From contig CAVOVB010000001.1 in assembly GCA_963699755.1 (NCBI GenBank), positions 416,001-480,000 on the forward strand: a DNA stretch of 64,000 nucleotides, written 5' to 3'. A program made the position numbers and the translations under genes. Under the pieces are notes generated by a model. The model was not told the DNA's origin and did not search any database. It worked only from the letters and a program-made list of their open reading frames with translations. The DNA is from an uncultured delta proteobacterium. GTDB lineage: Bacteria; Myxococcota_A; Polyangia; Polyangiales; Houyiibacteriaceae. This document shows positions 24,571-31,975 of the stretch, piece after piece; position 1 is the stretch's first letter, and every line of letters starts with the position of its first letter.

Positions 24571-25110
24571 GCGGGGAGGCGTTGTCATCCATCCGCTGGC
24601 GAGGCAGATCGCGCAGCGGTGCAAGGAGAAGCTCCTCGAATCGTCCGAGAGGTGACGCTCGGCCCAGGTACGAAAGACCTTCGCCAGCGCTGGAGGTGCC
24701 GCTCACGGACCTCTTCGCGAGCTGGCTGGCAGCGATGGGAGCCGAGGTGTCGAAGGATACCGTCCGCTGCTGGGAGACGTACGCAGCCGCTCATTTCATC
24801 CCGTTCTTCGAAACCTGTTGGGCACCAAACCAGCGATTCCGAGGATTCCGAGACGCGCTACCGGTACGGCCCATCCGAAGGGGAAGCGCGAGACGGTTAC
24901 GCTGACGCCGGAGGAAATGGACGCCATCGTGGCTCAGCTCCCAGAGCGTTCGAAGCTCGGCTATCCGATGCGGGCGTACTACGAGGTGGTGCGAGAAACG
25001 GGGCTTCGGCCTTCGACGCGCAGCATTGGAGGCTAGTCTCAAGGAGTACGAGCCGCAATACATCAACGCACGCTCATTTCGACATGCCGCGGTGACCGAC
25101 ATGACGGTGA
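24570..25110 (+). pseudogene. Tyrosine integrase remnant (N-terminal and core parts, multiply deleted)
   Basis: LFASWL..HFIPFFE, PRRATGT..LTPEE, ETGLRP, RSFRHAAVTDMTV; similar to the integrase at 47426. Confidence 0.75.
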
Positions 25111-25160
25111 CACGAACGATTTCTGCGAGGAGGACGAGAGCACTAGCTCGTTGAAATCGC

Positions 25161-25183
25161 AGCGGAGGCGGTGGGAATCGAAC
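25161..25183 (-). other. T-arm/acceptor fragment of tmRNA or a tRNA, att-site remnant
   Basis: Minus strand GTTCGATTCCCACCGCCTCCGCT, directly downstream of the integrase remnant. Confidence 0.5.
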
Positions 25184-26059
25184 AGCCGGGAGCTCGCCCG
25201 ATTCCGACGTTTCTCGAACGGTTTCGCGGACAGGTATCGATGAGAACTGGACTTCCCCCGCCCCTGTAGACACCTCGAAGCCAAACGCGAGGTGCTTAAG
25301 CTTCGAGCCGAGCTTCGGCGCGCGCAAGAAGAGCGGGACATATTAAAAAAGCCGCTGTGTACTTTGCGCGAGAGCCCGAGCAAAGTACGCATTCATCGAA
25401 GCGCACCGCAAGGAGCACCGCATCCAGACGATGTGCCGGGTGCTCGGCGTGGCGCGCAGCGGGTTCTACGCCTGGCTTCATCGGCCGCTGTCGGATCGAG
25501 CGCGGCAGGACGGCCGTTTGCTCGAGCTCATTCGCGCCTCGTGGTTTGCGAGCGGGGGTATCTATGGGAGCCCCCGCATGTGGGGCGACCTTCGCGAATC
25601 GGGCGTTCGGTGCAGCAAGAAGCGCATCGCCCGCATCATGAGAGAGCACAAGATCCGGGCCATTCGTGGCTACAAGCGCCCGCGTCACCGCCCTGGGCGT
25701 CCCGCCGCACTCGCACCCAATCGGTTGCAGCAGCAGTTCACGGTGAGCCGTCCCGACGAAGCCTGGGTGACCGACATCACCTACCTCCGCACATGGCAAG
25801 GGTGGCTCTACTTGGCCGTCGTGATCGACCTCCACTCGCGCCGCGTCGTCGGATGGTCGATGAAGTCGTCGCTACACCGCGAGCTCGTACTCGATGCGCT
25901 CTTGATGGCGGTGTGGCAGCGCAAGCCTCGGCAGCACGTCATCGTGCATTCCGATCAAGGCACGCAATACGGCAGCGATGAGTGGCAGCGTTTCTGCCGA
26001 GCGCACCGGCTCACCACGAGCATGAGCCGCCGCGGCAACTGCTACGACTGTGATGATGC

Positions 26060-26298
26060 TTGGACGCCGATCGATCCTCTGGAAAGATCGTCGTGGTCGT
26101 TGCTTCGGGTGATCTGACCCTTGCTATGATCGACCTTGGGTGTCCTGGCGTTGACGTGTCGGTCACCCGCAAGCAGCGGCGTATCCTTACCAGCCAGGCG
26201 GGTCGTGACCTCATAGGAGCCTGAATACTTCGGTCCCATCACAGTCCTGTCCTTCCTCGTCTGACCGGTGAGTTCAACCACTGACCGGAAGGAATACC
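26060..26298 (+). ncRNA. Putative IS110 bridge RNA (5' hairpin, target-binding loop, donor-binding loop)
   Basis: Stem GTTGCTTCGGGTGATCTGAC / GTCGGTCACCCGCAAGCAGC encloses TGCTATGA (26122) and GGCGTTG (26147); a second stem encloses ATAGGAGC (26213) and CATCACAG (26237), which match the element ends. Confidence 0.8.
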
Positions 26299-26301
26299 TG
26301 C

Positions 26302-27381
26302 ATGCCAAGCGTCTCGCCGAAGCCCACCGAAATCATCGTGGGCGTGGATACACACAAGCACCAACATGTCGCATTCGCGATCGATGGACTGGGCCGCGTC
26401 GCCGCCGAGCCTATCACGATTCCCGCAACGGGGGCCGGCTATGCCCAACTGCTTGCATGGGCCGATGCGCTGGGCACCGTTCACGCCTTTGGGGTGGAGG
26501 GTTGTGGCTCCTACGGAATCGGTCTGGCACGCTTCCTTCGGCGCCATGGTCGTAGTCTGCAAGAGGTCGCTCGCCCTGTTCGCCGAGGGGAGCGTCGAAA
26601 GTCTGGAAAGAGCGACGCGATCGATGCCGAACATGCCGCACGCACCATCCTCACCAGCACAGGAACTGCGACTCCAAAGCTCGCGAACGGTCCTGTGGAG
26701 GCGCTCCGACTCATCAAAATCGCCCGAGATACAGCGGTGAAAGCGCAGTCGATGACCATGATCACGCTCAAGGCCATGGTCGTCACAGCGCCCAGCGGGT
26801 CGCGCGAACGAATCGAGCCGCTCAACAACCACCAGCTCGTCCTGGCATGCTCCGCTCTCGATTCGTCGGAGGCAGTGTCCGACCCCGAAGTCGCCGTCCG
26901 GTACGCACTCGGTGCGCTCGGCCGCCGGTGGCTACAACTCCACGAGGAGATCAAGACGCATACCGCTTATCTCAAGGAGCTCACGCGAGCGTCGGCGCCG
27001 GAGCTGGTCGACACGTTCGGAGTCGGGTTCGACAGCGCAGCCGAGTTTCTCATCGCGGCCGGTGACAATGCCGACCGTATTCGTTCCGAAGCGGCTTTCG
27101 CCAAGCTCTGCGGAGCATGTCCGATCCCCGCAGGGTCGGGCATGACCAACGGTCGTCATCGTTTGAACCGAGGCGGTAATCGCCAAGCCAATGCCTCACT
27201 CTATCGAATCGTCATCGTCCGGATGCGCTGGCATCCCGCCACCATGGCGTACGTCGAACGCCGCACTGCCGAAGGTTTGTCGAAGAAGGAGATCATTCGT
27301 TGCCTCAAGCGTTTCGTCGCTCGGGAGATCTATCGCCTCCTGCCAAGACCAAGTTCTGCGAGTCTGCCAAAAGCCGCCTAG
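26302..27381 (+). CDS. IS110-family DEDD recombinase
   Basis: VGVDTHK, GVEGCGSYG, KSDAIDA, PIPAGSG, RLNRGGNRQAN, IRCLKR. Confidence 0.95.
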   Translation: MPSVSPKPTEIIVGVDTHKHQHVAFAIDGLGRVAAEPITIPATGAGYAQLLAWADALGTVHAFGVEGCGSYGIGLARFLRRHGRSLQEVARPVRRGERRKSGKSDAIDAEHAARTILTSTGTATPKLANGPVEALRLIKIARDTAVKAQSMTMITLKAMVVTAPSGSRERIEPLNNHQLVLACSALDSSEAVSDPEVAVRYALGALGRRWLQLHEEIKTHTAYLKELTRASAPELVDTFGVGFDSAAEFLIAAGDNADRIRSEAAFAKLCGACPIPAGSGMTNGRHRLNRGGNRQANASLYRIVIVRMRWHPATMAYVERRTAEGLSKKEIIRCLKRFVAREIYRLLPRPSSASLPKAA

Positions 27382-27712
27382 CCTCCTTGACATCTATAGG
27401 AGCATCAATGCGGTCGCCGAGTCGTTTTTCAGCAGCTTGAAGAAGGAACGGATTCGAAGGAAAATCTACAGGACCCGGGCCGAAGCCCGGGCCGACGTGT
27501 TTGACTACATCGAGGTCTTCTACAATCGAAAGCGGCGGCACAGCCACATCGGAGACATGAGTCCGGCGGCCTTCGAGGCCGTCCTCAGCAACCCTAGCCG
27601 GGTGTCTACGGAAGCGGGGTAAGTCCAGCAACCCTAGCCGGGTGTCTACGGAAGCGGGGGAAGTCCATTTCGACGCGTATTTGACGCGCACTTGGTGAAG
27701 ACCCTCATGTGC

Positions 27713-30474: not shown

Positions 30475-31975
30475 TGTACGTCATCAGAGTATTTCGGAGA
30501 AGAGGGCATGTTTGTTAAGAGACGGTTCGTGGTTTTGACCTAGGCCGCGTTTGCGGCCCGGTACTCCTTTTTGCGACGCTGCATCGTAAGCTGCTTGATC
30601 TTGTCCCGTTCGGATAGGACCCGGTGGCGCCGGCCGTAGTACACGTCGGCCGGCGTGCAGTTGTCGAGCGACTCGTGGTAGCGGCGATGGTTGTAGTAGG
30701 CGACGAAGTCGCGCACCGCTGCCTCCAGCTCCCACGGGAAGTAGTAGTGCTGTAGCTTCACGACGTTCTTCATCGAGCGGTGGTAGCGCTCGATCTTCCC
30801 CTGCGTTTGCGGGTGGTACGGGCGGCCTCGGGTGTGCGTCATGCCCTGCTCCTGCAGGTAGCTCTGCAAGTCCTTCGATACGTAGGCCGGTCCGTTGTCG
30901 CTCAGGGTCTCGGACGATGGCGCACTCGCACGCTCTGTACTCCGGTGAGCGCCAGTGCTTCGTCGAGCGTCTCGGTCACGTCCGTGGTCGCCATCGTCGG
31001 GCCCAGTTTGTAGGCGAGGATGAAGCGCGAGAAGTCATCCATCACCGTCGACAGGTAGTACCAGCCCCAGCCGACGACCCGCAGGTACGTGAAGTCGGTC
31101 TGCCACATCTCGTGTACCCGCTTGGTCGGATGCTTGAAGCGGTCCGACGCGCTCATCAGGACGTACGCCGGGCTCGTGATCAGATCGGCGGCCTTGAGGA
31201 TGCGGTAGACGCTCGATTCGCTCGGGAAATACTGGCGCTCATCGATGAAGTGGCACGCGAGCTCCCGGGCTGAAAGCTCCGTCTTTTTGAGGGCCAAATC
31301 GATCACCTCGGCCCGGACCTTCTCGGGGACTTGGTTCCATCTCGGACGCGGCGGCGGCGTCTTGTCTTGCAGGGCATCGAATCCACCGTCGACATACCGC
31401 TTGTACCGGCTGTAAGAGGTGCTCGATGGGATGCCAGTTGTCGCAGCGTGACCCGTACCGGCAAGTCGGTGCGCTCGGCCATGTCAATCAGCTCCATCTT
31501 CTCGGATGCACTGCGTCTCATGTGCCGTCCTTGTCGCCATGACCCATCAGACTTTTTTTGAGCACACGGTTCTTGAGCGTCATCTCCGCGACGACCTCCT
31601 TGAGCTCACTGTTTTCGGTTCGCAGGTTCTTGACCTCGGTGATCGTCGCCTCCCGCACCGTGTCGCCGCTCAGCTGCTTCTTACCGGCCTCCAGGAAGTC
31701 CTCGCTCCAGCGGTAGTACAGATTCGCGGCGATACCTTCGCGTCGGCACAACTCGGCCACGCTGACCTCACTGCGCAGGCCGTCGAGCACGATCCGGATC
31801 TTTTCTTCCGCAGAAAACCTCCGGCGCGTCTTGCGACGGATGTCACGCACGGCGGCCTCACTCGAAGCGTTTCTCTCTTCTCGGCATGGGACACTCCTCA
31901 GCAGGGCTCTCGCCCTCGGCACAGTGTCTCTTAACTCAGAGCCCTTTTGTCTCCGAGTTCTTCTGACGGGCTACA
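30475..31975 (-). mobile_element. IS3/IS481-related two-ORF insertion sequence, frameshifted
   Basis: About 50-bp IRs TGT..TCAGA..TCGGAGA..TTAAGAGAC; orfA RRFSAEEKIRIVL; ATGA coupling at 31518-31521; WQTDFTY, SDNG, HPQTQGKIERYH; no target duplication seen. Confidence 0.88.

What the first reader, a model, noticed from the sequence alone, without database searches (positions are those of the whole stretch)
26041..27413. IS110 bridge RNA whose guides read the conserved C-Y-D-N-A codons of IS3 transposases, with wobble at synonymous positions
Seen: pre-insertion target TGC TAC GAC AAT GCG. The target loop carries TGCTATGAT (26122-26130) and GGCGTTG (26147-26153, reverse complement CAACGCC) on opposite sides of an internal loop. 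All differences from the target fall on third codon positions, and those for Tyr, Asp and Asn are U or G in the RNA, so G-U/G-T pairing would accept both synonymous codons. The donor loop carries ATAGGAGC and CATCACAG, exact matches to the right and left ends. Known: IS110 bridge RNAs specify target and donor this way; ISEc21 is reported to target IS3 elements, at a different DDE position as I recall. Inference: an RNA-guided parasite of IS3 elements, tuned to a protein motif just before the catalytic Glu; the recombinase is intact, so it is a candidate programmable tool.
Basis: partly seen in the sequence, partly recalled or inferred. Interest (0 to 1): 0.85.

Follow-up and report, generated by a model that had tools for sequence, protein, structure and literature searches.

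The report
RNA-guided transposon homing into IS3 transposases
This is an intact RNA-guided jumping gene whose guide RNA steers it into one conserved spot of other jumping genes' transposases; it is a new, widespread lineage of a known kind, and its guide accepts some spelling variants of that spot.

Summary
A 1358-bp IS110 element (26049-27406) with an intact-looking recombinase splits an IS3 orfB at Cys-Tyr-Asp^Asn-Ala, four codons before the catalytic Glu. Relatives confirm homing: 77 of 92 testable insertion events have IS3-like flanks (own profile, training rows included), and all 54 of 72 flanks that hit the IS3 family model break at the same position. Guides covary with targets and element ends, and the target loop's stems covary. 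The clade's motif is (S/C)(Y/W/F)D^NA; the Cys codon is read loosely. Wobble acceptance is supported: C-guides almost never sit on T-ending codons, U-guides sit on both (stratified p about 0.004). 'Tuned for synonymous codons' is only partly supported: U at the Tyr position also keeps the loop from self-pairing, and one relative wobbles at a first codon position. ISEc21 already targets IS3 (at HSD^QG), and wobble is published for IS621 and ISPpu10. An added inference: a one-base core with handshake bases reading the Asp codon twice. The scan noted similar elements on other DNA before.

The parts
25248..25274 (+). Left inverted repeat of the host IS3 (TGGACTT...)
   Evidence: Sequence; matches the right repeats
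25275..25430 (+). 3' remnant of IS3 orfA; the 5' part is missing, so the host IS3 is defective
   Evidence: identified as orfA by position and a recalled ILKK..YFA motif, not by a family scan
25431..26048 (+). IS3 orfB, 5' part (HTH_21, rve; D115, D175)
26040..26048 (+). Left target TGC TAC GAC (Cys-Tyr-Asp); C26048 is the crossover base on the target side
26049..27406 (+). IS110 element, 1358 bp, no target duplication beyond one shared C; single copy in G000
26052..26057 (+). -10-like hexamer GATGAT, 17 bp from TTGACA once the ends are joined in the circle
   Evidence: Junction layout; conserved in relatives; promoter function inferred
26103..26174 (+). [quoted passage not shown]
   Evidence: 10 of 15 outer-stem pairs and 1 of 3 inner-stem pairs have compensatory changes
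26122..26130 (+). Left target guide, 9 nt, pairs with the bottom strand of target positions -9 to -1
26147..26153 (+). Right target guide, pairs with the top strand C^AAYGC; its first base is unmatched here
26154..26155 (+). Putative handshake bases of the target loop (AC); A fits the donor's T at -2
   Evidence: by analogy with IS621
26204..26252 (+). Donor-binding loop
   Evidence: closing and inner stems paired in 53 of 53 but invariant, so no covariation support
26213..26222 (+). Left donor guide ATAGGAGC(C)T, matches the right end at -11 to -2 with one mismatch at -3
26237..26244 (+). Right donor guide CATCACAG, pairs with C^TGTGATG
   Evidence: guide base and left-end base change together
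26245..26246 (+). Putative handshake bases of the donor loop (TC), complementary to the GA of the target Asp codon
   Evidence: 73 of 76 match GA; one natural TT-with-AA case
26302..27381 (+). IS110 recombinase, 359 aa, PF01548 + PF02371; D16, E66, D105, D108, S279
   Evidence: 43% identical to an ISEc21-like protein
27387..27392 (+). -35 hexamer TTGACA in the right end
27407..27622 (+). Right target AAT GCG and IS3 orfB 3' part (rve_2, rve_3; catalytic E211)
27588..27667 (+). IS3 right end as a 40-bp tandem duplication holding two right inverted repeats

Best explanation
An ISEc21-subgroup IS110 element that uses IS3 transposase genes as its landing site. Inferred by analogy: the element forms a circle, the joined ends make a TTGACA-17-GATGAT promoter, and the 5' non-coding end is transcribed as a two-loop bridge RNA. 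Shown by comparison: the target loop reads NNN-T(A/T/G)N-GAY on the bottom strand and C^AAYGC on the top strand, the donor loop reads the element's own ends, and insertion falls after the Asp codon of (S/C)(Y/W/F)D^NAxxE. Guide positions 4 and 7-9 and right-guide positions 1-5 are read tightly; positions 1-3 and 5 loosely. rU-dG and rG-dT pairs are accepted, C-A pairs near the crossover rarely, so one guide covers many IS3 subgroups and codon spellings. Inferred: target and donor share only one core base (C), and the next guide bases pair with the other DNA after strand exchange, so the Asp codon's GA is read twice. Whether the U bases are selected for breadth or kept for folding is open (about 0.4 for selection for breadth).
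For: Guides present and beyond chance. IS3-like flank in 77 of 92 testable events and 53 of 61 element clusters; reverse-complement control 0. Independent NCBIfam scan: 54 of 72 flanks hit the IS3 model, all ending at profile position 313 or starting at 314. Own guide matches own target better than shuffled pairs: 351 versus 308 +/- 6, maximum 331, 53 clusters. Elements off IS3 with changed guides match their new sites (L073 9 of 9; L104; L075). Donor guides change with the ends. Target-loop stems covary. Wobble asymmetry: T-ending target under a C-guide 1 of 18 (position 6) and 1 of 53 (position 9), under a U-guide 10 of 42 and 4 of 14; stratified p 0.004, one event per cluster median 0.006. 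One enterobacterial element (99% or more identical) sits in both AAC-AG(C/T) (3 loci) and AAT-GCG (3 loci). Handshake fit 73 of 76. ISEc21 biology shown experimentally in PMC11187229 (passages); wobble shown for IS621 (PMC11208160) and ISPpu10 (10.64898/2026.03.19.712850).
Against: No transposition, circle or RNA was shown for this element; the RNA run gave one 196-nt contig that cannot show expression. 15 of 92 events had no IS3-like flank, and at least four of them (L016, L019, L077, L008) carry the ordinary guide (L008 is borderline, E 0.004, and its right flank looks IS3-like). Outright mismatches are common at guide positions 1, 2, 3 and 5 (24, 19, 12, 16 of 70), so tolerance is not only wobble. 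No wobble asymmetry at position 3 (p 1.0) and position 6 alone is not significant (p 0.15). The own profile was built from 37 flanks of the events it scores. The handshake covariation rests on one element. A relaxed 11-base motif occurs 37 times unoccupied in G000, so more than that motif is needed or only IS3 hits survive.
Confidence: 0.85

Rival explanations
1. Homing is real, but the U bases in the left guide are kept for RNA folding (C at position 6 lets the left guide pair with the right guide and close the loop) or drift there; broad codon acceptance is a by-product, not tuning. This is a rival to the tuning step only.
For: Swapping position 6 in silico: opening the guides costs more with C in 49 of 51 loops, 5.67 versus 4.46 kcal/mol. 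The free apical loop is already 50% U among pyrimidines (81:81), so the neutral level is above the codon background. U at position 9 (13 of 51) equals background. At position 3, C- and U-guides hit T targets alike.
Against: No folding benefit at position 3 (C costlier in 21, U in 23) although U is there in 39 of 51 clusters. Wobble-capable guide bases opposite invariant bases do not drift: right-guide C opposite the Ala G is U in 1 of 58, left donor guide C is C in 48 of 48, A at position 8 is A in 54 of 54. Codon pools are only 15-26% T-ending.
Confidence: 0.5
2. Insertion is fairly promiscuous on a short GAC^AAYGC motif, and the IS3 enrichment mostly reflects survival: hits in host genes are lost, hits in dispensable IS3 copies are kept.
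For: 37 unoccupied relaxed motifs in G000, many in apparent coding sequence; loose reading of guide positions 1-3 and 5; some insertions outside IS3.
Against: The guide itself spells the IS3 motif, including TG(T/C) at positions 1-2 in about 45 of 54 clusters, and tracks Tyr/Phe/Trp changes of the target (position 5: T with T 6 of 8, G with G 3 of 3). Intergenic and accessory DNA would also tolerate hits.
Confidence: 0.15
3. Target choice is made mainly by the protein, and the guide-like matches are relics.
For: No experiment on this element; several observed targets differ from their guide at three or more bases.
Against: Guide-target covariation; near-identical recombinases in one 90% cluster with different guides sit in different, guide-matching sites (L073, L075); ISEc21 was reprogrammed through its RNA.
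Confidence: 0.03

Closest known systems
ISEc21 (IS110 family; Siddiquee et al. 2024, PMC11187229; passages, section 13 and supplement searches seen; also its preprint, passages)
   Same: Same subgroup (43% identity to an ISEc21-like protein, 358 versus 359 aa), upstream non-coding region, same two-loop layout and TTGAC right end, inserts into IS3 transposase genes after an Asp codon without duplication.
   Different: Target is CACAGCGAT^CAGGG, the second catalytic Asp (review table PMC13604230; loci L142, L143). This lineage targets the non-catalytic Asp four codons before the Glu. L144 and L299 show both kinds in one IS3 copy.
IS621 bridge recombinase (Durrant et al. 2024, PMC11208160; Hiraizumi et al. 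2024, PMC11208158; passages seen)
   Same: Four guides in two loops, 9-nt left target guide, DEDD plus Ser catalytic set, junction promoter, a natural rG-dT pair, top-strand cut after position 9, handshake bases.
   Different: IS621 targets REP sequences and shares a 2-nt CT core. Here target (AC) and donor (TC) share one base and the cross-pairing bases sit one position closer to the cut (inferred). IS621 was reported to prefer perfect matches; natural targets here are looser.
ISPpu10 (bioRxiv 10.64898/2026.03.19.712850; passages seen)
   Same: U-G wobble in the left guide and G-T wobble in the right guide shown by mutagenesis; distal left-guide positions loose.
   Different: Targets an intergenic REP-type stem-loop with a CT core, not a coding motif.

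Membership tests
IS110 family, IS110 group | DEDD RuvC-like domain plus C-terminal Tnp domain with catalytic Ser | tested here: met
   PF01548 and PF02371 above cut-off; D16, E66, D105, D108, S279
IS110 family, IS110 group | Long non-coding end upstream of the gene, short right end | tested here: met
   253 bp before the start codon, 25 bp after the stop
IS110 family, IS110 group | Sequence-specific insertion without target duplication | tested here: met
IS110 family, IS110 group | Bridge RNA with target and donor loops whose guides covary with the DNA | tested here: met
   donor-loop stems are invariant, so their pairing has no covariation support
IS110 family, IS110 group | Circular intermediate with a junction promoter | tested here: inconclusive
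   TTGACA-17-GATGAT layout conserved; no circle joint in the four runs laid
IS110 family, IS110 group | RNA is expressed, binds the recombinase and is needed for movement | not testable with these tools
   Only contigs were available
IS621-type bridge recombinases | Shared 2-nt CT core in target and donor | tested here: not met
   Target -2,-1 is AC/AT and donor TC
ISEc21 proper | Target at the second Asp of the IS3 DDE (HSD^QG) | tested here: not met
   All 54 family-model hits break at position 313/314, the D^NAxxE site
IS3 family (host element) | TG...CA inverted repeats, orfB with D-35-E spacing | tested here: met
   orfA is truncated

The most novel reading that the evidence does not exclude
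A widespread IS110 lineage has guides selected to read a protein motif rather than one DNA sequence: wobble-capable bases are placed where IS3 targets vary by transitions and nowhere else, and a one-base core with handshake bases double-checks the invariant Asp codon. With ISEc21, this would make two IS110 lineages that divide the IS3 active-site region between them.
Probability: 0.35. Interest if true: 0.62.

Novelty: new member of a known kind. Interest (0 to 1): 0.45.

Why it matters
It gives a large natural set of guide-target pairs for one bridge-recombinase subgroup, with rules on where wobble and mismatch are accepted, and points to a one-base core, which would loosen the CT-core limit of IS621-type tools. 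It also shows that RNA-guided elements routinely disable IS3 transposases at more than one conserved motif, from Actinomycetota to Enterobacterales. The basic idea (IS110 in IS3, wobble in guides) is already published.

Tried and rejected
Rfam: no meaningful match. PDB sequence search: none at E 0.001. Linear promoter scan: none, as expected if the promoter forms only in the circle. Viral contigs: no relative by protein; the right-end pattern gave 120 loci, only 1 with a transposase, so the rest are treated as chance. 200 related genomes: no full-length copy, so no multi-copy logo for this exact guide. My recollection that the enterobacterial relative is ISEc45 was wrong: ISEc45 is in another cluster; no named element was matched to this clade (searched only a clustered subset). 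The pooled position 6+9 Fisher test mixes strata and was replaced by the stratified test. In one search the donor-loop closing helix was entered one column off, so its 44% is void; one search is the valid count. The tree is the quick one; the careful search did not finish, and the place of L144 is unsure. RNA runs X16-X20 had small shares; only X16 was laid and it shows nothing about expression.

Full report
Observation. The guide stretches and junctions are at the stated places. The element is 26049-27406. Its 359-aa protein carries both IS110 domains and the DEDD and Ser residues. It has one copy in genome G000, and the strict empty motif TGYTAYGAYAAYGC occurs nowhere else there. The host IS3 lacks the 5' part of orfA. 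Rejoined, orfB has D115, D175 and E211 with 35 residues between the last two, and the break is after residue 206. Base shuffles of the non-coding end give a target-guide pair as good in 18 of 20,000 and a donor-guide pair in 51 of 20,000. Run X1 holds two contigs that skip exactly 1358 bases at this site; they may be related IS3 copies and X1 may be the source sample.

Data set. Relatives came from genome contigs (61 loci), metagenome contigs (best 80 of 106) and plasmids (10 picked from 1137 records; further places in five of them). I kept the 123 loci with at least 50% identity plus L144, dropped 7 re-fetches, and left out the loci under 50%. That gave 116 loci, 69 clusters at 90% protein identity and 93 distinct events with at least one junction.

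Homing. Left flanks translate to SYD in 37, CYD 9, CWD 8, CFD 3 and SFD 3 of 76; right flanks to NA in 60 of 73, with Glu at +5 in 58 of 72. One stop-free flank from each of 72 events was scanned against NCBIfam: 54 hit the IS3 model (as fragments, below the whole-protein cut-off), all ending at profile position 313 or starting at 314; 18 hit nothing. A three-frame search of both flanks with my own profiles, built from 37 of these flanks, scored 77 of 92 events and 53 of 61 clusters, with no hit on reverse complements. L062, 98% identical in protein, has a different IS3 with AAC on its right, against AAT here, but its non-coding end is replaced, so its guide is unknown.

RNA. The target loop is supported by covariation: 10 of 15 outer-stem pairs and the middle inner-stem pair (A-U 36, G-C 17) change on both sides in 53 sequences. 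The donor-loop stems pair in all 53 but do not vary. Own left guides match own targets at 351 positions against 308 +/- 6 for shuffled pairs. The right donor guide follows the left end (A with T 13, G with C 38, G with T 3, A with C 0), and left donor guide variants follow the right end in L009 and L106. L073, L075 and L104 have changed guides and sit outside IS3 in sites that fit them.

Wobble. T-ending targets lie under a C-guide in 1 of 18 cases at position 6 and 1 of 53 at position 9, and under a U-guide in 10 of 42 and 4 of 14 (stratified p 0.004; one event per cluster, median 0.006). Position 3 shows no such effect. The right-guide G covers AAC 45 times and AAT 9 times, and the A variant only T, 3 times. 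An enterobacterial element with one guide occupies AAC-AG(C/T) in L144, L298, L307 and AAT-GCG in L299, L300, L301, which uses G-T wobble at the Asn third position and U-G wobble at the next first position (10 loci picked from 61 records). So wobble follows where targets vary, which is not always a synonymous site.

Tuned or tolerated. For tuning: U is at position 3 in 39 of 51 and at position 6 in 40 of 52 clusters with C or U there, while codon pools are 15-26% T-ending. The states change at least 15 and 14 times on the quick tree. Wobble-capable guide bases opposite invariant bases stay put. Against: C at position 6 makes the loop harder to open in 49 of 51 cases, by about 1.2 kcal/mol; the free apical loop is already half U; position 9 is at background; U at position 3 brings no visible gain; and clusters are related, so the binomial values overstate. 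I put selection for breadth at about 0.4.

Core and handshake (inference). Target and donor share only the base at -1. The two bases after the right donor guide are complementary to the target's -3,-2 in 73 of 76 events as GA, plus one TT-with-AA case (L075); the base after the right target guide fits the donor's T at -2. This matches the handshake pairing of IS621 (PMC11208158, passages), moved one place. It would explain why G and A of the Asp codon are each 75 of 76 conserved. T at -1 appears at 6 of 78 left junctions and 0 of 74 right junctions, as a top-strand cut after -1 predicts; the right-end search pattern favours C, so this count is soft. ISEc21-like L142 has the same layout.

Known systems. 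PMC11187229 shows ISEc21 in IS3 members at the second catalytic Asp, with circle formation, RNA dependence and reprogramming (passages; one supplement file was an unreadable scan, and figures are not held). Loci L142, L143 and Microvirga copies confirm HSD^(Q/R)G. Wobble is reported for IS621 and tested in ISPpu10. Nine literature searches and term look-ups in three more preprints (abstract of 10.1101/2025.10.25.684509) found no description of the D^NAxxE target. ISFinder, subscription journals and bioRxiv supplements were not visible, so a named member may exist.

Verdict. A real and well supported RNA-guided IS3 parasite of the ISEc21 kind, with a different target and a wide host range. Wobble acceptance is supported; adaptive tuning is plausible but has a strong folding rival. 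Earlier scan notes reached similar readings on other DNA; they are not counted as evidence.

Noticed in passing
window 27588-27667: The IS3 right end is a 40-bp tandem duplication with two right inverted repeats differing by one base; a related end remnant lies on G000 contig C10.
   Followed up: partly
L093 1-1299: 98% identical to window 25103-26400 including the truncated orfA, so the same insertion event in a close strain.
   Followed up: yes
L144 and L299: One IS3 copy carries both an ISEc21-like element at HSD^QG and a CWD^N element about 100 bp downstream.
   Followed up: partly
L075, L104: Reprogrammed relatives with a TTTTGTGA(A)C guide sit in non-coding sequence that resembles ends of other insertion sequences (recalled resemblance, not tested).
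   Followed up: no
L188 (viral contig): A 42%-identical relative whose right guide CTGTTTTTG fits its A-rich right flank.
   Followed up: no
L004, L062, L149, L150, L151: The non-coding end or 5' part of several relatives is itself replaced or interrupted by other insertion sequences (annotated IS6, IS21 and IS1380 in L149-L151; IS256-like and istB-like by eye in L004, L062).
   Followed up: no
L026-L061: A distant multi-copy IS110 group (36-46% identity) in Solirubrobacterales with many different flanks starting mostly CAACGA; target not worked out.
   Followed up: no
window 24680-25250 and 30540-31922: An integrase-like remnant upstream of the IS3 and a second, frameshifted integrase-core transposase with a relaxase-like gene further downstream suggest a decayed mobile region (ORF list; not scanned).
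   Followed up: no
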